A DNA stretch of 25,018 nucleotides from the UHGV virus genome UHGV-1360762; one strand, given 5' to 3'. The notes below the pieces were generated by a model. The model worked only from the letters and a program-made list of their open reading frames with translations. It was not told the DNA's origin and ran no database searches. The translations under genes and the position numbers were made by a program. Source of the DNA: a virus. Shown piece by piece: positions 2,822 through 19,818 of this stretch (position 1 is the first letter of the stretch; every line of letters starts with the position of its first letter).

Positions 2822-3660
2822 TTCGCCTCCTGCGGCGGTTCTGGTAGCGGCATCCAGAACAAGGCGTTCCCTAACCACGATAAAGTGCCGTCGCTCAACT
2901 CCACGTATTCCCCTTGTACCTGTCCTGCCATATACTCGCCGTGCTTTGAATAAATTAAAATCCAATCATCTTGAGGGGGCATTCGCTCACTACAGCTTAT
3001 CCAACCATCCGGAGTTACCGGAGAGTTGCCTGCCAGTCTACGCAAAACAGCCTTAACAGCCTCAATACGGTCATCATCGTAACTTTCCGCCGTATCTATG
3101 CGGTCGAGCATGATGATTGCGTTATCAATATCAGGATTGCCGGTCCACTCATTACCGCGATTGGATTCGGCAGCCTGGTTGCCGCGTACTGGTTGATTGT
3201 CGGCTTTACCCAGTCTGTCGTCGCTGCATGAATGCCCTTCCAGCCAGGCCAATGCTTGTCGCATGAAATACGCAATATGTTTGCCGTGGTAATCGTCTTC
3301 ATCGATGTGAAAAGCGATACTACGAATGTATTCAATTGCGTTTTCAATGGCCTCTAACGCTATCGGCGCTGGCGGAGTGGTATATAGTTTTCGGCATTTG
3401 TTTATCCAACCGGCATGGTCAGGCGTGTCTGTAAAGCGCAAATCGTCTTCGTAGCCCTCACGACTACGTTCTTTCCATTCCGTCCACGGAACACCGCTAT
3501 TCCAGGTGGGGCGAGTGCAGGACTGATACAGAACAGGCTCTGCTTCCAGCGATGCCAGTGCGATTTCATAAGCCCGACGCTCAATATTGTCTCGAACGTC
3601 CAGGCTGCCTATGCGCTCTTTGATTTCTTTAATTAGTTCTTTGTCGGTGAACGTTGTCAT
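2818..3660 (-). CDS. Ea22-like / DUF551-containing phage protein (280 aa)
   Basis: C-terminal region DGWISCSERMPPQDDWILIYSK...LSWLGNALFWMPLPEPP resembles the DUF551 signature of lambdoid early-left proteins. Confidence 0.6.
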   Translation of the reverse strand: MTTFTDKELIKEIKERIGSLDVRDNIERRAYEIALASLEAEPVLYQSCTRPTWNSGVPWTEWKERSREGYEDDLRFTDTPDHAGWINKCRKLYTTPPAPIALEAIENAIEYIRSIAFHIDEDDYHGKHIAYFMRQALAWLEGHSCSDDRLGKADNQPVRGNQAAESNRGNEWTGNPDIDNAIIMLDRIDTAESYDDDRIEAVKAVLRRLAGNSPVTPDGWISCSERMPPQDDWILIYSKHGEYMAGQVQGEYVELSDGTLSWLGNALFWMPLPEPPQEAK

Positions 3661-3663
3661 GTG

Positions 3664-3951
3664 TTAGTCCTCATCCACTTCAACGCCATCTTTCAGCGTG
3701 ATGCCGTGCCAATCATCAGCCCAACTGGTTAGCCCTGGCGCATCAATGCTAGGCATATAAACGCTTGCAGTGTGGTAGCCCTTATCGTTATCAATGCTGG
3801 CAACGTGCTCGCCGTTGTATGCGCTCAGCGTGTCCAGGACGCTATAAAACTTTCCTCCGGCTGCCCTGAAATCCTTTACAGCCTTCACAAGGCGATTCCA
3901 CGCTTTTTCCTGTTCTGGCGTCAGGTCGATTAATTCCTGCAAAGTTGCCAT
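3664..3951 (-). CDS. Hypothetical acidic protein (95 aa)
   Basis: ORF tightly packed in the leftward operon; no recognised family. Confidence 0.5.
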   Translation of the reverse strand: MATLQELIDLTPEQEKAWNRLVKAVKDFRAAGGKFYSVLDTLSAYNGEHVASIDNDKGYHTASVYMPSIDAPGLTSWADDWHGITLKDGVEVDED

Positions 3952-3952
3952 A

Positions 3953-4441
3953 TCACTCTCCTTTGATGCGAATGCCTGCGGCGCGGATTGCAGCGATGAC
4001 TTCAGAAACTTTGTATGCCATTACCGTTTGGTAATCATCGTGAAAATCTGTTCGATGAAGCATGCTGCTACGTTCCGGGAGCAGTATTTCCCGTGCTTCC
4101 AGTTCTGCAATGCGCTTCTCTGCGGCTTCCAGCTCAACTCTCAGCTTCCCTACCGTTAGCGCAATATCTTCGTTCTCCTGGTCGCGGCGTTTGATGTACT
4201 GCTGGTTTCTTTCCCGTTCATCCAGCAGCGCCTGCACTACTTCAGGGTTGAAAGCTGCGATATAATGGGCGTTGTTCTCTGCGTTTTTCTGTCCATCAAA
4301 GCCGGTCCATTTGATAACGTCTTCACATCGTTCATCACCGGGCGTATGCACCGCATACGTACCAGTACCAGACGAAATAAATGCGACCCATTCGCCCTGT
4401 GTTGCTAACTCACGCAGTGCCTGATAGTCAATCTTGCTCAC
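3953..4441 (-). CDS. Ead/Ea22-like family protein (162 aa)
   Basis: Segment ALLDERERNQQYIKRRDQENEDIALTVGKLRVELEAAEKRIAELE and C-terminal AGIRIKGE resemble recalled lambda Ea22; ATGA overlap with the upstream gene. Confidence 0.65.
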   Translation of the reverse strand: MSKIDYQALRELATQGEWVAFISSGTGTYAVHTPGDERCEDVIKWTGFDGQKNAENNAHYIAAFNPEVVQALLDERERNQQYIKRRDQENEDIALTVGKLRVELEAAEKRIAELEAREILLPERSSMLHRTDFHDDYQTVMAYKVSEVIAAIRAAGIRIKGE

Positions 4442-7996: not shown

Positions 7997-8129
7997 TTTT
8001 TGGAACTCCTGGCTGATTAAGTACGTCGATGAGTCGTTTCCATCCGTCACGTAATTTACGGGTGATTCGTTCAAGTAAAGATTCGGAAGGGCAGCCAGCA
8101 ACAGGCCACCCTGCAATGGCATATTGCAT
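7989..8129 (-). CDS. cIII: cIII (FtsH inhibitor stabilising cII), lambda-like
   Basis: MQYAIAGWPVAGCPSESLLERITRKLRDGWKRLIDVLNQPGVPKNG is near-identical to recalled lambda cIII. Confidence 0.88.
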   Translation of the reverse strand: MQYAIAGWPVAGCPSESLLERITRKLRDGWKRLIDVLNQPGVPKNG

Positions 8130-8190
8130 GGTGTACTCCTTATTTATACATAACGAAAAACGCCTCGAGTGAAGCGTTATTGGTATGCAT

Positions 8191-15309: not shown

Positions 15310-15478
15310 TCCATCCCAATCCCTTCAATACCAGAAAGAAAGCGTCGAGCGGGCTTTAACGTGCGCTAACTGCGGTCAGAAGCTGCATGTGCTGGAAGTT
15401 CACGTGTGTGAGCACTGCTGTGCAGAACTGATGAGCGATCCGAATAGCTCAATGTACGAGGAAGAAGACGATGAGTGA
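15302..15478 (+). CDS. ninF: NinF
   Basis: [51 protein letters not shown]... matches recalled lambda NinF. Confidence 0.85.
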   Translation: MLSPSQSLQYQKESVERALTCANCGQKLHVLEVHVCEHCCAELMSDPNSSMYEEEDDE

Positions 15479-15980
15479 TGTTAAAGAAAAAGATATCCCC
15501 GGCTTTGAGGGTATATATAAAGTAACTGAAAATGGAGACATCATTTCATGCCGTAAATCAAAAAAATTATCTCATGGCATTAAACCAGGAGGATATGCAT
15601 TTGTCGGTCTGTATCCAGGTGGCGGGAAAAGACCATCATATAAAATGGTTCACAGAATTGTTGCAGAAGTATTTATTGATAACCCAGATGGCAAACCGGA
15701 AGTTAATCACAAGGATGGAAATAAACTTAATAATAAAGTTGAAAATCTTGAGTGGGTAACGCGAACAGAAAATGCGAAACATGGATTTGATTCCGGATTG
15801 CTTGTTCATGGGTTTAATCATCACTTCTGCAAACTAACGCCAGAACAAGTGAAATCAATATATAAATCAAAAGGCAAATACAGAGATATAGCCAAAGAAT
15901 TTGGTGTTTGTGCGCAGACAGTGTGCAACATAAAAAACAAATCAGCGTACCGACGTTTTTTGGAGGGGATTGATGTTTAG
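15471..15980 (+). CDS. HNH homing endonuclease (NUMOD4-like N-terminus plus HNH_3)
   Basis: GFEGIYKVTENGDIIS (NUMOD4-like) and VHRIVAEVFIDNPDGKPEVNHKDGNKLNNKVENLEWVTRTENAKH (HNH_3-like); coding sequence visibly more AT-rich than neighbours. Confidence 0.8.
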   Translation: MSDVKEKDIPGFEGIYKVTENGDIISCRKSKKLSHGIKPGGYAFVGLYPGGGKRPSYKMVHRIVAEVFIDNPDGKPEVNHKDGNKLNNKVENLEWVTRTENAKHGFDSGLLVHGFNHHFCKLTPEQVKSIYKSKGKYRDIAKEFGVCAQTVCNIKNKSAYRRFLEGIDV

Positions 15981-16248
15981 AAGCAAAAAATGGCTTCAGG
16001 CAGTCAGGGATATTGAATTTTGCGTTCTTTGCGGAAGATACGGAGTTCAGGCCGCTCACAGAAATGAAGGGAAGGGGGTTGGGATTAAAGTAGATGATTG
16101 CCTTACTGCTGCGCTATGTGTTGATTGTCATTCAAGAATTGATAATGGGAGAGATATGAGCAGGGAAGAGCGAAGGGCTGAAATGGATCGGGCCATTGTG
16201 CTTACCCTTAAAAAATTGGTTAACAATGGGAGGGTGTTTGTCCAATGA
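15970..16248 (+). CDS. YbcO-like (DUF1364) zinc-binding nin-region protein
   Basis: Cys/His pattern C..CG…AH…ALC..CH..ID and location directly upstream of rusA, as in DLP12 ybcO-rusA. Confidence 0.6.
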   Translation: MMFRSKKWLQAVRDIEFCVLCGRYGVQAAHRNEGKGVGIKVDDCLTAALCVDCHSRIDNGRDMSREERRAEMDRAIVLTLKKLVNNGRVFVQ

Positions 16249-16607: not shown

Positions 16608-16792
16608 ACGCCACAATTCAAACGATACCAGAGCTTCTTATCCAGACACGAGGCAATCAGACCGAAGTGGCAAGGATGCTTTCCTGCGCAAGAGGAACAG
16701 TGCTCAAGTACAACCGAGACAGCAAAGGCGAGCGTCACGTAATAGTTAACGGCGTCCTGATGGTCAAACAAGGCAAGAGGGGAAGACGATGA
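16604..16792 (+). CDS. ninH: NinH-like DNA-binding protein
   Basis: TIPELLIQTRGNQTEVARMLSCARGTVLKYNRDSKGERHVIVNGVLMV resembles recalled lambda NinH. Confidence 0.8.
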   Translation: MNATIQTIPELLIQTRGNQTEVARMLSCARGTVLKYNRDSKGERHVIVNGVLMVKQGKRGRR

Positions 16793-17307
16793 GCATAAGA
16801 GAACTAAACCTCACCAAAGAGCAGCACGAGTGGCTGAATGGCTGGCTTGAACTGTGGGGCGCATGGGTTTATTCAGGTCGTCTGGAAAAGCGCATGAGCA
16901 GCGTAATAGCGAAGTTCATGGAGAGCGTAGAGCCGGGAAGAGTTATGACAAGGCCAATGTGCAATGATGATGATGGAATGTTGATTTCTCAGGTCGTCGA
17001 TTCCGTCATGTGCATTGACAAGAAAGCCTTTGGCATCCTCCTCAGCTACTACGCTCATGGTTCATCTAAGCGAGCAATTGCATCCTACTATCACGCGACT
17101 GCAAAGCCACGCAAGATGTGTGGACGTGGTGGCGAGGGATGGAGAAAACCTTCACTGGCAACCTGTAGAAACGAAATTGACGACATCCTGAAAGCGTCGT
17201 TATTTGTTTTGTACCAGCCAATGCAAAATGCTTTCAAAATGCGTAAACGTGTTGAGAAAGTTAAGCATGTTGCTGTTAAAAGCCTTGACATGCAATTATC
17301 CATTTAG
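16789..17307 (+). CDS. Q: Late gene antiterminator Q (phage-82-type Phage_antitermQ family)
   Basis: LELWGAW… and TRPMCNDDDGMLISQVV motifs resemble the ERWGAW / RPQCCDDD signatures of this family; followed directly by a promoter and short-leader terminator. Confidence 0.75.
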   Translation: MSIRELNLTKEQHEWLNGWLELWGAWVYSGRLEKRMSSVIAKFMESVEPGRVMTRPMCNDDDGMLISQVVDSVMCIDKKAFGILLSYYAHGSSKRAIASYYHATAKPRKMCGRGGEGWRKPSLATCRNEIDDILKASLFVLYQPMQNAFKMRKRVEKVKHVAVKSLDMQLSI

Positions 17308-17320
17308 CCATAATATTCAC
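17285..17320 (+). promoter_or_regulatory. pR' late promoter / qut region (-35 TTGACA 17285-17290, -10 CATAAT 17309-17314)
   Basis: Consensus -35 with 18-bp spacer to a near-consensus -10, overlapping the Q stop codon; terminator about 40 nt downstream. Confidence 0.6.
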
Positions 17321-17344
17321 ATATGCTGCTGCTTTTGCATTCAG

Positions 17345-17369
17345 CAACCATCACAAGCCCACCTCCTGT
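17345..17369 (+). terminator. tR'-like rho-independent terminator (AAGCCCAC CTCCT GTGGGCTT + TTTTT)
   Basis: Perfect 8-bp GC-rich stem, 5-nt loop and T-run immediately downstream of the putative pR'. Confidence 0.8.
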
Positions 17370-17501
17370 GGGCTTTTTTGCATTCGCGTGCAATCAAAAC
17401 AAGAGTCTTAGTGATATGGGCCTGAGATATGGTGGTGGAAACATCGCTCCGCTCTTGGCTGTCATATCTACGCGAACAGGCTCTATCCCTAAGGTAAAGC
17501 G

Positions 17502-18014
17502 ATGAAAGAAATAAAATTAACGCCAGAAATGGTGCTTTCTGTTGTTGATTACAATCCATCATCAGGCGACTTTCACTGGAGATGGAGGCAGGGGAGAGAG
17601 AGGACCACTTTGACATGGAACTCTCGTTTTGCTTTCAAGAAATGCTCATCAATAAATTCTGATGGGTATTTAATGATTATGATTAATGGTAAAGCATACC
17701 CTGCTCACAGACTGGCATGGTTGATTGTTTATGGCACCATGCCCGATGGTTTTATTGATCACATCAACAGGGTAAGAACAGATAACCGGATATCAAATCT
17801 TCGTCTTGTCACTCATTCCGAAAATATGCAGAACAGGAAAATTCAGAAGAATAATAAATCTGGATACCGTGGCGTGTCTTGGGATGCTAAGTACGGGAAA
17901 TGGAGAGCAAGAATTAATGCGTCTGGAAAGTGTATTAACCTTGGATACCATGACACTGCCGAACTTGCCGCTGCGGCTTTTGAGGCCGCCAGAATTAAAT
18001 ATCATACCGTTTAA
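17502..18014 (+). CDS. HNH endonuclease with C-terminal AP2 DNA-binding domain (homing-endonuclease-like)
   Basis: HNH_3-like core (…AHRLAWLIVYGTMPDGFIDHINRVRTDNRISNLRLVTHSENMQN) followed by AP2-like YRGVSWDAKYGKWRARINASGKCINLGYHDTAELAAAAFEAA; AT-rich coding sequence. Confidence 0.8.
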   Translation: MKEIKLTPEMVLSVVDYNPSSGDFHWRWRQGRERTTLTWNSRFAFKKCSSINSDGYLMIMINGKAYPAHRLAWLIVYGTMPDGFIDHINRVRTDNRISNLRLVTHSENMQNRKIQKNNKSGYRGVSWDAKYGKWRARINASGKCINLGYHDTAELAAAAFEAARIKYHTV

Positions 18015-18600
18015 AGATGTAGCTGCCGTTAGTGACTCTTAAGTTGCAACGGTGGCTTTTTTGTTTGCACAACAGGTAAGAGCATTGAACCCGCAGACCT
18101 CGCGGAATTGGTGAAAGGTGCCGCGCAGTACTCTTATCGTTGTGGTGAATACGCAGGCTGATGCGTTAATCAGGTGAACGAGACACCCGCCGGTCCGTGA
18201 TATGGCACACCGTGCCGGTCATATCTGCCGCGGTTAGGTTTACGAGGATTTCGTAAAGCTGGTCTAGGGTGAAGCCGTGAAAGCGGAGGAAGTAAAACGA
18301 GGCGTCGGTACACGCCTATCGTCATTAAGTCGGAGTTCAGCACCGACCGCCACAACCCAAACTGAGCCGTAGCCACTGGTTATCCTGAACTCATCAGTGA
18401 TAGTTATGCTGCGGCCTTCTACATATGACCTTCGTGAAAGCGGGTGGCAAGAGGCTGCGCTAACAACCTCATGCCGTTTTGCCCGTGCATATCGGTCACG
18501 AACAAATCTGATTACTAAACACAGTAGCCTGGATTTGTTCTATCAGTAATCGACCTTATTCCTAATTAAATAGAGCAAATCCCCTTATTGGGGGTAAGAC

Positions 18601-18924
18601 ATGAAGATGCCAGAAAAACATGACCTGTTAGCCGCCATTCTCGCGGCAAAGGAACAAGGCATCGGGGCAATTCTTGCGTTTGCAATGGCGTACCTTCGCG
18701 GCAGATATAATGGCGGTGCGTTTACAAAAACAGTAATCGACGCAACGATGTGCGCCATTATCGCCTGGTTCATTCGTGACCTTCTCGACTTCGCCGGACT
18801 AAGTAGCAATCTCGCTTATATAACGAGCGTGTTCATCGGCTACATCGGTACTGACTCGATTGGTTCGCTTATCAAACGCTTCGCTGCTAAAAAAGCCGGA
18901 GTAGAAGATGGTGGAAATCAATAA
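18601..18924 (+). CDS. S: Holin S (class I, dual-start MKM), lambda-type
   Basis: Near-identical to recalled lambda S ([61 protein letters not shown]...); upstream leader also lambda-like. Confidence 0.96.
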
Positions 18925-19384
18925 TCAACGTAAGGCGTTCCTCGATATGCTGGCGTGGTCAGAGGGGACAGATAACGGACGACAGAAAACCAGAAATCAT
19001 GGTTATGACGTCATTGTTGGCGGAGAGCTATTCACTGATTACTCAGATCACCCTCGCAAACTTGTCACGCTAAACCCCAAACTCAAATCAACAGCCGCCG
19101 GACGCTACCAGCTTCTTTCCCGTTGGTGGGATGCCTACCGCAAGCAGCTTGGCCTGAAAGACTTCTCTCCGAAAAGCCAGGACGCTGTGGCATTGCAGCA
19201 GATTAAAGAGCGTGGCGCTTTACCGATGATTGACCGCGGTGATATCCGTCAGGCTATCGACCGTTGCAGCAATATCTGGGCTTCACTGCCGGGTGCTGGT
19301 TATGGTCAGTTCGAGCATAAGGCTGACAGCCTGATTGCAAAATTCAAAGAAGCTGGCGGAACGGTCAGAGAGATTGAGGTATGA
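18908..19384 (+). CDS. R: Endolysin R (lytic transglycosylase), lambda-type
   Basis: 158-aa protein matching recalled lambda R ([49 protein letters not shown]...). Confidence 0.95.
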
Positions 19385-19818
19385 GCAGAGTAACCGCGAT
19401 TATCTCCGCTCTGGTTATTTGCATCATCGTCTGTCTGTCATGGGCTGTTAATCATTACCGTGATAACGCCATCGCCTACAAAGCCCAGCGCGACAAAGCC
19501 ACATCCATCATCGCTGATATGCAGAAGCGTCAACGTGATGTAGCTGAACTCGATGCCAGATACACAAAGGAGCTTGCTGATGCTAACGCGACTATCGAAA
19601 GTCTCCGCGCTGATGTTTCTGCTGGGCGTAAGCGCCTGCAGGTCGCCGCCACCTGTGCAAAGTCAACGACCGGAGCCAGCGGCATGGGCGATGGAGAAAG
19701 CCCAAGACTTACAGCAGATGCTGAACTCAATTATTACCGTCTCCGAAGTGGAATCGACAGGATAACCGCGCAGGTTAACTACCTGCAGGAATACATCAGG
19801 ACGCAATGCCTTCGATGA
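19381..19818 (+). CDS. Rz: Spanin inner-membrane subunit Rz (N-terminus lambda-identical, C-terminal half diverged)
   Basis: [31 protein letters not shown] matches lambda Rz; the remainder is coiled-coil-like but differs from lambda. Confidence 0.88.
19553..19765 (+). CDS. Rz1: Spanin outer-membrane lipoprotein Rz1, embedded in the +1 frame of Rz
   Basis: Out-of-frame ORF inside Rz with signal peptide and lipobox (…[11 protein letters not shown]) followed by a proline-rich segment ([13 protein letters not shown]). Start may be the internal Met at 19580. Confidence 0.75.

What the first reader, a model, noticed from the sequence alone, without database searches (positions are those of the whole stretch)
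17502..18014. HNH-AP2 endonuclease in the moron slot between Q/tR' and the lysis genes
Immediately after the pR'/tR' short-leader unit (17285-17369) and before holin S lies an AT-rich gene for an HNH endonuclease fused to an AP2 DNA-binding domain, followed by a weak hairpin and T-run (about 18044-18062). This is the slot occupied by Shiga toxin genes in Stx phages, so the gene should be expressed only after Q antitermination. A second, unrelated HNH enzyme in the same genome suggests repeated invasion by selfish nucleases, or co-option of a nuclease for late functions such as packaging assistance.
Basis: partly seen in the sequence, partly recalled or inferred. Interest (0 to 1): 0.5.

Follow-up and report, generated by a model that had tools for sequence, protein, structure and literature searches.

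The report
Selfish nuclease inside phage late-gene switch
An optional, probably selfish nuclease gene sits inside the first bases of a lambda-like phage's late transcript, bringing a replacement pause signal, its own stop signal and a folded RNA leader predicted to hide its ribosome site; the gene type is ordinary, the way it is built in is not.

Summary
ORF 17502-18014 encodes a 170-aa HNH_3 + AP2 endonuclease, 99.4% identical to phage HK629's annotated HNH.

It lies after a Q21-family Q gene, pR' (17285-17314) and a terminator (17355-17381), and before S/R/Rz.

New points:
- Against HNH-less relatives (CUS-3, HK75, Sf6), 17315-18021 is a ~707-bp insert. Cleaner empty/occupied pairs place the insertion inside the -10-like pause element, about +3/+4 of the late RNA. 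The insert re-creates that element (TATGCT) and adds its own terminator.
The gene is therefore bracketed by two terminators.
- Nine lineages of this nuclease (58-99% aa identity) all sit directly after a Q21-family Q. Lysis and terminase modules differ. About 10% of such E. coli sites are occupied, and truncated remnants exist.
- The 5' leader (17375-17510) stays 85-99% identical although synonymous sites are saturated. It belongs to a covarying RNA family absent from Rfam that pairs the Shine-Dalgarno sequence. That family also precedes Rha, KilA-N, T5orf172, TerB and other HNH genes, always just after a terminator.

Best reading: a free-standing homing-type endonuclease cassette with Q-dependent transcription and throttled translation. 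Cleavage and homing are untested.

The parts
16789..17307 (+). Q antiterminator, Q21 family (Sf6/CUS-3/HK75 subtype)
   Evidence: Pfam Phage_antitermQ, E 1e-25. PHROG 943. About 87% identical to Q21 of PDB 6JNX/6P18. It is the only constant neighbour of the HNH clade.
17285..17314 (+). Late promoter pR' (-35 at 17285-17290, -10 at 17309-17314). The direct repeat TATCCA/TAGCCA (17297-17302 and 17305-17310) in the spacer is a putative Q-binding element.
   Evidence: 11 of 12 consensus matches. Identical in CUS-3, HK75 and Sf6, where it is annotated pR'. The Q21 QBE lies between -35 and -10 as a direct repeat (PMC6606751). Assigning the repeats here as the QBE is inference.
17315..18021 (+). Inserted segment relative to HNH-less relatives (about 707 bp, replacing 9 bp TAGAAGGTA)
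   Evidence: BLAST collinearity with CUS-3, HK75 and Sf6 stops at 17314 and resumes at 18021. The segment is present at 99% or more in 41 of 5426 E. coli genomes.
17322..17327 (+). -10-like sigma-dependent pause element TATGCT, inferred to lie at +2..+7 (transcription start inferred at A17321)
   Evidence: A T-A-N-N-N-T hexamer lies exactly 7 nt after the -10 in all HNH+ leaders (TATGCT) and in all promoter-adjacent HNH-less leaders (TAAGCT). Numbering comes from the QBE positions -21 and -13 in PMC6606751. The function is inferred.
17355..17381 (+). First terminator (tR'A), brought in with the cassette
   Evidence: 8-pair stem with 5 G-C pairs plus T6. dG -12.5 kcal/mol, z -3.2. Conserved in all nine lineages.
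17375..17510 (+). Structured 5' leader RNA: P1 hairpin, then a long hairpin (about 17406-17494) whose base pairs UCUUAG with CUAAGG, which contains the Shine-Dalgarno AAGG at 17491-17494
   Evidence: 85-99% nucleotide identity across lineages whose dS is saturated. Consensus fold. Covariance model hit of 149.8 bits. The family shows 22 of 28 covarying pairs and 0 of 500 shuffles reach the observed values. Single-sequence folds of 5 of 6 divergent members give the same shape. No Rfam match.
17502..18014 (+). HNH_3-AP2 endonuclease gene (170 aa); catalytic D86-H87 and N108
   Evidence: dN/dS is 0.05-0.07.
18021..18062 (+). Displaced ancestral late-leader hairpin and terminator ('leader21' type), now without a promoter; acts as a second terminator before the lysis genes
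   Evidence: 98-99% identical to the tR' region of CUS-3, HK75 and Sf6. dG -19.3 kcal/mol plus T6. The same sequence follows the HNH stop codon in Serratia and other lineages.
18601..19818 (+). Lysis genes S, R and Rz (downstream late genes)
   Evidence: Pfam Phage_holin_3_1 and Phage_lysis. Matching annotations in HK629 and CUS-3.
15471..15980 (+). Second free-standing HNH gene (NUMOD4 + HNH_3), an independent insertion in the nin region
   Evidence: Pfam. PADLOC 'homing endonuclease', E 1e-24. Segment 15485-16244 is absent from all 40 other contigs that carry the first HNH.

Best explanation
This is a free-standing, homing-type HNH-AP2 endonuclease cassette lodged in the first bases of the late transcript of a Q21-family lambdoid phage.

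Shown:
- The protein has an intact I-HmuI-like HNH active site and a C-terminal AP2 DNA-binding domain.
- The gene is optional at this site.
- Its clade always follows a Q21-family Q gene.
- The inserted segment carries a -10-like hexamer at the ancestral position, its own terminator and a conserved structured leader.
- The ancestral leader and terminator now lie 3' of the gene.

Inferred mechanism:
1. pR' fires constitutively and RNA polymerase pauses at TATGCT (+2..+7).
2. Without Q, the transcript ends at 17381 and the nuclease stays silent in the lysogen.
3. With Q, polymerase reads through both terminators and makes HNH mRNA as the first late message, followed by S, R and Rz.
4. Translation is kept low because the leader hairpin pairs the Shine-Dalgarno sequence.
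5. During co-replication with a related phage that lacks the gene, the enzyme nicks or cuts a site in or near the conserved late leader. Repair from the HNH+ genome then copies the cassette and often the adjacent Q module.
For: Domains and catalytic residues:
- D86, H87, N89, N99 and N111 are invariant, and N108 is conserved in at least 90% of 36 homologues.

Purifying selection:
- dN/dS is 0.05-0.07.

Insertion boundaries, from three empty/occupied pairs with 93-99% identical flanks:
- window against CUS-3;
- L010 against phage yong1, bounded by a 14-bp repeat;
- L011 against L196, with the junction TA^AGCT.

Site fidelity:
- Nine of nine lineages lie directly after Q, while lysis and terminase types vary.

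Occupancy and decay:
- Occupancy is about 10%.
- Decay products include the PhiR12 remnant and truncated or chimeric proteins P0005-7, P0020 and P0024.

Module behaviour:
- The block 16778-18062 (Q through the second terminator) is the constant unit in 40 viral contigs, with breakpoints at its ends.
- One pair of loci has Q 98% identical but HNH only 68% identical, which indicates allele exchange.

Expression anatomy:
- No promoter-like site was found upstream of the ATG.
- Both terminators fold strongly.
- The leader structure is supported.

Precedents:
- HNH-AP2 homing endonuclease genes, and nuclease genes at exchange boundaries: PMC10448857.
- Hairpin-sequestered ribosome sites of T4 homing endonuclease genes: PMC2988022.
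Against: - No cleavage site, nuclease activity or biased inheritance has been shown.
- Q and HNH identities mostly fall together, so much of the distribution could be plain co-inheritance of a Q-HNH module.
- The direction of change (insertion or deletion) is not resolved. The HNH 3' flank is itself a copy of the common leader, and HNH-less leaders can be written as deletions between the two leader copies.
- The same leader RNA precedes non-nuclease genes. Cassette mobility may therefore not need the nuclease.
- The pause-element assignment and Q-dependence rest on sequence alone.
Confidence: 0.6

Rival explanations
1. The nuclease is domesticated and benefits its phage. Made first among the late proteins, it damages competing or co-resident lambdoid genomes (superinfection or prophage competition), or host DNA. 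It is retained for that benefit rather than for its own spread.
For: There is strong purifying selection, with invariant catalytic residues across 58-99% identical lineages. The position as first late gene is stably linked to Q over long divergence. Expression is tightly controlled.
Against: Only about 10% of comparable E. coli sites carry it. Truncated remnants exist. Active homing endonuclease genes also show purifying selection. This reading is not exclusive of homing, because exclusion of marker-less competitors is a known side effect of such genes.
Confidence: 0.2
2. The gene is passive cargo of a generic 'terminator + structured leader + gene' cassette. Such cassettes are swapped between lambdoid late operons by ordinary recombination at the conserved terminator and leader sequences. 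The nuclease activity plays no part in the movement.
For: The same leader RNA, always just after an intrinsic terminator, heads Rha, KilA-N, T5orf172, TerB and unknown genes at another late-operon site. The leader is the best-conserved part of the unit. The insert is flanked by diverged direct repeats of local leader or terminator sequence.
Against: This clade was found at one site only, next to Q, in nine of nine lineages. The other cargoes sit after the lysis genes. Two of the cargo families (HNH_3 and T5orf172) are themselves homing-endonuclease families.
Confidence: 0.15
3. The protein acts mainly as a sequence-specific DNA binder through AP2, for example as a regulator of late transcription or of its own expression, or as an anti-defence silencer like the AP2-containing CasPR proteins. 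The HNH part would be vestigial or a nickase.
For: AP2-domain phage proteins can silence genes by DNA binding (bioRxiv 10.64898/2026.02.23.707548). I-TevI doubles as an autorepressor (PMC2988022).
Against: The HNH catalytic residues are invariant. CasPRs lack HNH and pair AP2 with CapR. PADLOC matches only generic homing-endonuclease models.
Confidence: 0.04
4. It is a packaging helper of the HK97 gp74 type, stimulating terminase cutting.
For: Only the late timing of expression.
Against: The Pfam family differs (HNH_3, not the classic HNH next to terminase). The gene is not adjacent to the terminase. Across lineages it co-occurs with Terminase_2/3, Sf6-type/Terminase_6 and other systems. It is absent from close relatives with the same Q and lysis genes.
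Confidence: 0.01

Closest known systems
HNH-AP2 free-standing homing endonuclease genes ('IPA-HNH HEGs', Barth et al. 2023, PMC10448857; first noted by Magnani et al. 2004 as cited there)
   Same: N-terminal HNH and C-terminal AP2 in about 170 aa. Free-standing. Lies at a boundary of genetic exchange next to an essential gene. Other homing endonuclease genes are nearby; in L007/L009, Q is bracketed by two HNH-AP2 genes.
   Different: Here the gene sits inside a regulatory RNA leader (+3/+4 of pR') of a temperate phage. It carries a replacement pause element and a terminator. None of this is described for that class in the papers read.
I-HmuI (PDB 1U3E), HNH nicking homing endonuclease of Bacillus phage SPO1
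   Same: Fold of the N-terminal 107 columns (Foldseek probability 1.0). The D-H...N catalytic motif aligns.
   Different: Sequence similarity is weak (phmmer E 0.19). I-HmuI is intron-encoded and uses a helix-turn-helix tail, not AP2.
T4-family homing endonuclease regulation (I-TevI, I-TevII, I-TevIII, segB, Aeh1 mobE): ribosome site sequestered in a hairpin, terminators near the gene (PMC2988022)
   Same: A stable hairpin pairs the Shine-Dalgarno sequence. Intrinsic terminators flank the gene. Expression depends on upstream phage promoters.
   Different: In T4 a late promoter inside the hairpin frees the ribosome site. No such promoter was found here, and how the site is freed is unknown. Control here is by Q antitermination.
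HK629 gp61 (AFM76545.1) and the E2348/69 prophage 'HNH endonuclease'
   Same: The same gene (99.4% aa; the cassette is 100% identical in E2348/69) in the same slot.
   Different: These are annotation only. HK629's record labels the cassette terminator simply 'terminator' and places a 'putative pR'' just before the HNH gene, which disagrees with the conserved pR' at the end of Q.
stx genes and tRNAs in the Q-to-S slot of Stx phages
   Same: The same slot and the same Q21-family leader in the TW14359 Stx2 prophage. Q-dependent read-through is expected.
   Different: stx and the tRNAs lie downstream of the intact leader and terminator. The HNH cassette splits the leader itself.

Membership tests
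HNH_3 / I-HmuI-like His-Me endonuclease | Pfam HNH_3 score above the curated cut-off | tested here: met
   66.1 bits against a cut-off of 24.8.
HNH_3 / I-HmuI-like His-Me endonuclease | Catalytic His with Asp/Asn metal ligands in a beta-beta-alpha fold | tested here: met
   D86-H87...N108 align to D74-H75...N96 of 1U3E. These residues are invariant or nearly so in 36 homologues. The fold matches.
HNH_3 / I-HmuI-like His-Me endonuclease | Metal-dependent DNA nicking or cleavage | not testable with these tools
   Needs purified protein.
AP2/ERF DNA-binding domain | Pfam AP2 above the cut-off, and a three-stranded sheet packed on a helix | tested here: met
   34.4 bits against a cut-off of 33.3. 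The model has E125-128, E133-140, E143-150 and H153-167. rmsd is 1.2-1.7 A to 1gcc and 7et4/7et5.
Free-standing homing endonuclease gene | Presence/absence polymorphism at one site between otherwise near-identical genomes | tested here: met
   Three empty/occupied pairs. 39-41 occupied against at least 358 empty E. coli genomes.
Free-standing homing endonuclease gene | Site-specific cleavage of the allele that lacks the gene | not testable with these tools
   The target is unknown. The conserved leader around the insertion point is only a candidate.
Free-standing homing endonuclease gene | Biased (super-Mendelian) inheritance with co-conversion of flanks | tested here: inconclusive
   The Q-to-second-terminator block travels as a unit with breakpoints at its ends. 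One case of HNH allele exchange under an identical Q was seen. Both fit co-conversion but do not prove it.
Moron (Hendrix): extra transcription unit between genes adjacent in relatives | Inserted between elements that are adjacent in relatives, with deviant base composition | tested here: met
   GC is 41.1% against 47.5% for the window.
Moron (Hendrix): extra transcription unit between genes adjacent in relatives | Its own promoter, allowing expression from the prophage | tested here: not met
   No sigma-70-like site lies between 17381 and 17502. A terminator sits immediately upstream instead.
HK97 gp74-type packaging HNH | Adjacent to the terminase or portal genes and tied to one packaging type | tested here: not met
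   The gene is separated from the terminase by the lysis genes. Terminase families differ between lineages.
Q21-type late regulatory unit (pR' - QBE - pause element - tR') | Q21-family Q, a promoter overlapping the 3' end of Q, a -10-like hexamer in the initial transcribed region, and a terminator within about 70 nt | tested here: met
   The element layout follows PMC6606751 and bioRxiv 10.1101/651190. Function was not tested.
Described RNA families (Rfam 15) | The leader 17375-17510 reaches any family's threshold | tested here: not met
   Nothing at gathering score. The best permissive hit is E 0.33, far below its cut-off.

The most novel reading that the evidence does not exclude
Two linked novelties.

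(a) A homing-type nuclease cassette targets the sigma-dependent pause element at +3/+4 of the Q21-family late transcript. It keeps the host switch working by carrying a replacement pause element and terminator. This would be a regulatory-DNA counterpart of an intron restoring the gene it splits. The classic phage-21-type leader and this cassette's 3' flank are copies of one sequence, so HNH-less leaders may be deletion scars or the cassette's preferred target.

(b) Its roughly 135-nt leader belongs to an undescribed class of structured cis-regulatory RNA. That class gates translation of nuclease and DNA-binding cargo genes (HNH, T5orf172, Rha, KilA-N, TerB) placed directly after terminators in lambdoid late operons, and it marks a family of exchangeable 'terminator-leader-gene' cassettes.
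Probability: 0.35. Interest if true: 0.7.

Novelty: new variant of a known kind. Interest (0 to 1): 0.55.

Why it matters
The Q/pR'/tR' switch is a textbook antitermination system, and it is the control point for Shiga toxin release.

A mobile nuclease cassette that splits the pause element yet rebuilds it would show how selfish genes can colonise regulatory DNA without breaking it. It would also explain one source of mosaic breakpoints at Q.

The shared structured leader offers a testable, apparently undescribed RNA element controlling toxic accessory genes in many prophages of E. coli, Salmonella, Serratia and relatives.

HK629 (occupied) and HK75 (empty) are both laboratory coliphages with near-identical flanks, so the homing and regulation claims can be tested directly.

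Tried and rejected
- **GTDB species-representative genomes.** Both the protein-pattern scan and the 22-mer scan found nothing.
- **Metagenome scan.** The 18-mer gave 89 loci, of which only 3 were real, all carrying the window's allele. The rest were chance matches.
- **Coding explanation for the leader.** The window has a 29-codon upstream ORF (17417-17505, ATGA overlap with the HNH start). It is broken or shifted in L010, L011, L014 and L150, so the conservation is not protein-coding.
- **Own promoter for HNH.** None was found by the consensus scan. HK629's annotated 'pR'' hexamer has no usable -35.
- **Rfam.** No family matched.
- **Structure-blind alignment of the leader family.** MAFFT plus RNAalifold recovered only P1 and the GAGCCUG/CAGGCUC helix. 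Support for the upper stem rests on the model-fitted alignment and on single-sequence folds.
- **Direction of evolution.** Parsimony on insertion against deletion did not resolve it, because HNH-less leader21 occurs with at least four promoter types.
- **Packaging-helper and defence-system readings.** Both were rejected.
- **Literature.** No paper in the searched library describes this gene's placement or the leader. The pR'21 sequences in the structural papers are in figures only.

Full report
**1. What is there**

ORF 17502-18014 (+, 170 aa) is real. It scores above Pfam's curated cut-offs for HNH_3 (residues 66-110) and AP2 (120-167), and it matches PHROG 99 'HNH endonuclease' at E 2e-73.

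- Against solved structures, the HNH core aligns to the nicking homing endonuclease I-HmuI: D86-H87...N108 against D74-H75...N96. The C-terminus aligns to plant AP2 domains.
- An AlphaFold model (pLDDT 92) superposes its N-terminal 107 columns on I-HmuI (probability 1.0). Its C-terminus superposes on ERF1 and TEM1 AP2 domains at 1.2-1.7 A.
- In 36 homologues, D86, H87, N89, N99 and N111 are invariant, and N108 is conserved in at least 90%.

Upstream lie RusA, NinH and a Q protein about 87% identical to Q21 of the cryo-EM structures. Next come a near-consensus promoter at 17285-17314 and a terminator at 17355-17381. Downstream lie S, R and Rz.

The nearest phage is HK629, whose gp61 is 99.4% identical and is annotated simply as an HNH endonuclease.

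**2. The gene is an insertion in the late leader, not merely downstream of it**

CUS-3, HK75 and Sf6 have the same Q and promoter (98.7-98.9% identical up to 17314) and the same sequence from 18021 onward (98-99%). They have only 9 bp (TAGAAGGTA) where the window has 17315-18021.

In those phages the sequence that resumes at 18021 is the annotated late leader and tR'. It has a 17-pair stem (-19.3 kcal/mol) plus T6 and is stronger than the upstream terminator (-12.5).

Two further empty/occupied pairs sharpen the boundaries.

- Hafnia phage yong1 (empty) against prophage L010 (occupied): flanks are 96-98% identical, and the 654-bp insert is bounded by a 14-bp repeat, GGGCTTTTTGCATT.
- L196 (empty) against L011 (occupied, Serratia type): flanks are 93-96% identical. 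The empty site reads CATAAT-AGTGACA-TA^AGCTGCCG. The occupied left junction reads AGTGACA-TA|TGCTGCTGC, and the occupied right junction reads ...TAGCTTGA|AGCTGCCG.

Published positions of the Q21 binding element place its C:G pairs at -21 and -13, and the -10-like pause sequence lies in the initial transcribed region (PMC6606751). By that numbering the hexamer 7 nt after the -10 is at +2..+7.

That hexamer is TAAGCT wherever this leader directly follows a promoter, in all 40 or so distinct promoter contexts examined. It is TATGCT in every HNH+ leader. The insert therefore splits the pause element between +3 and +4 and re-creates it.

A template with only -40..-1 of pR'21 plus a pause element at the native position supports Q21 loading (bioRxiv 10.1101/651190). 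The retained promoter plus the new hexamer should therefore suffice for Q loading. This last step is inference.

**3. Distribution**

- The cassette occurs at 99% identity or more in 41 of 5426 complete E. coli genomes; it is 100% identical in E2348/69. The uninterrupted 21-type junction occurs in 358 genomes, giving about 10% occupancy.
- Orthologues at 58-94% aa identity from E. coli, Serratia, Pantoea and metagenomes were traced to contigs. In all nine lineages the gene lies directly after a Q21-family Q. The holins, endolysins, spanins and terminases differ. This argues against a packaging role and for a tie to Q and its leader.
- In 40 viral contigs the constant block runs from the start of Q to the end of the second terminator (16778-18062). 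Mosaic breakpoints fall at 16245 or 16778 on the left, and at 18062, 18088, 18149 or 18163 on the right.
- Q and HNH identities mostly fall together. L148 and L016, however, have Q 98% identical and HNH only 68% identical.
- Decay is visible. The PhiR12 phages keep the leader and only the first 68 nt of the ORF. Truncated and chimeric proteins exist.
- The slot is the Stx slot. The TW14359 Stx2 prophage has a Q21-family Q, the leader ATTCGCA-TAAGCTGCCG..., then tRNAs and stx2A.

**4. The leader is the most conserved part and is a structured RNA**

Between lineages, synonymous sites of both Q and HNH are saturated (dS above 1.5 or not computable), and dN/dS is 0.05-0.07. The roughly 183 nt from the pause element to the ATG nevertheless stay 85-99% identical. 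An upstream ORF in the window is not conserved elsewhere.

RNAalifold predicts a short hairpin and then a long hairpin whose base pairs UCUUAG with CUAAGG, which contains the Shine-Dalgarno sequence. With only the HNH-linked copies, covariation support is modest: 35 of 500 shuffles reach the observed score.

BLAST, and then a covariance model, found full-length copies elsewhere in lambdoid genomes, including HK75, CUS-3 and yong1. These lie after the lysis cassette. In 37 of the 39 hits inspected, an intrinsic terminator stands directly upstream. In every copy the motif ends at the start codon of an accessory gene. The accessory genes are Rha, KilA-N, T5orf172/MUG113, another HNH_3, TerB and unknowns.

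On 36 distinct sequences:

| Measure | Observed | Control |
|---|---|---|
| Cells forming standard pairs | 93.8% | 76.7% when shuffled; 34-43% when partners are slid |
| Pairs with compensatory changes | 22 of 28 | about 15 when shuffled |
| Shuffles reaching the observed value, all five measures | 0 of 500 | |

That alignment is fitted to the model, which favours the structure. As independent checks, single-sequence folds of five of six divergent members give the same architecture, including the anti-SD:SD stem. A structure-blind alignment keeps P1 and the central helix.

Frequent G-U pairs point to RNA from the + strand. Rfam has no match, and the literature search found no description.

**5. 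Mechanism**

The best-supported reading is a free-standing homing-type endonuclease cassette that is insulated twice.

- Transcription: the upstream terminator keeps it silent without Q, and both terminators are read through with Q.
- Translation: the ribosome site is paired, as in T4 homing endonuclease genes (PMC2988022).

HNH-AP2 genes are a recognised homing-endonuclease class. Nuclease genes at boundaries of genetic exchange, and 'islands' of such genes bracketing essential genes, are described in PMC10448857. In L007 and L009, Q is bracketed by two HNH-AP2 genes.

Still inferred: the cleavage target, biased inheritance, how the ribosome site is released, and whether the HNH-less leaders are ancestral targets or deletion products. 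The HNH 3' flank is a copy of the common leader. HNH-less leaders can be derived from the occupied form by recombination between the two leader copies. The 9-mer of the 21-type leader resembles the HNH stop-codon region, which is suggestive only.

**6. Verdict**

The gene itself is already annotated and belongs to a known class. Its placement inside the pause element with a self-supplied replacement, the double-terminator bracket, and the shared structured leader are new as far as the searched sources show. Interest is moderate.

Noticed in passing
L003 (HK75) 3817-3960; L002 (CUS-3) 4045-4182; L006 (yong1) 3916-4054; L152 5310-5444; L156 4608-4746; L241 3307-3445; about 25 more loci: The HNH leader motif recurs after the lysis cassette. 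In nearly every copy it directly follows an intrinsic terminator. It ends at the start codon of Rha, KilA-N, T5orf172, TerB, another HNH_3, or unknown genes. This is a candidate undescribed cis-regulatory RNA family and a 'terminator-leader-gene' cassette type.
   Followed up: partly
window 15471-15980 (+): There is a second free-standing HNH gene (NUMOD4 + HNH_3, GC 36.7%) where HK629 has Roi. Segment 15485-16244 is absent from all 40 other contigs carrying the first HNH, so it is an independent insertion. It has no leader motif.
   Followed up: partly
L007 and L009 2776-3297 and 4001-4513: In these prophages Q is bracketed by two different HNH_3-AP2 genes, one overlapping the start of Q and one after its leader. 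This looks like a small island of homing endonuclease genes around an essential regulator.
   Followed up: no
L005 (PhiR12_1) 2501-2755: The PhiR12 phages keep the cassette's leader and terminator and only the first 68 nt of the HNH ORF, followed by unrelated DNA. This is a decayed copy.
   Followed up: partly
L001 (HK629) 3569-3591 and 3679-3684: HK629's GenBank record puts a 'putative late promoter pR'' just before the HNH gene and labels the cassette terminator only as 'terminator'. The conserved pR' overlapping the end of Q is not annotated there.
   Followed up: yes
P0004 and P0010 (L148 1413-2012; L016 4001-4600): These 199-aa gene calls start inside the structured leader. The extra 29 residues (MSLRYGGGNIAPLL...) are probably a mis-called start, because the reading frame is not conserved in other lineages.
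   Followed up: yes
L148 versus L016: The Q proteins are 98% identical, but the adjacent HNH proteins are only 68% identical. This indicates replacement of the nuclease allele within an otherwise constant module.
   Followed up: no
window 17297-17310, compared with L155 (TW14359) promoter: The promoter spacer carries the direct repeat TATCCA/TAGCCA where the phage-21/Stx2 type has TGAGCA/TGAGCA, the published Q21 binding element. Q differs mainly in its C-terminal third. This looks like a co-varying change of Q and its binding-site specificity within the family.
   Followed up: no
P0020 and P0024 (protein search): These chimeric proteins join half of this HNH or AP2 sequence (97-100% identical) to Cro-like (PF11650) or CII (PF05269) domains. 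They are presumably recombination or assembly products.
   Followed up: no
window 8084-8142 (-): The lambda cIII thermoregulator RNA element (Rfam RF01804, 84 bits) is present, confirming a lambda-like early-left region.
   Followed up: no
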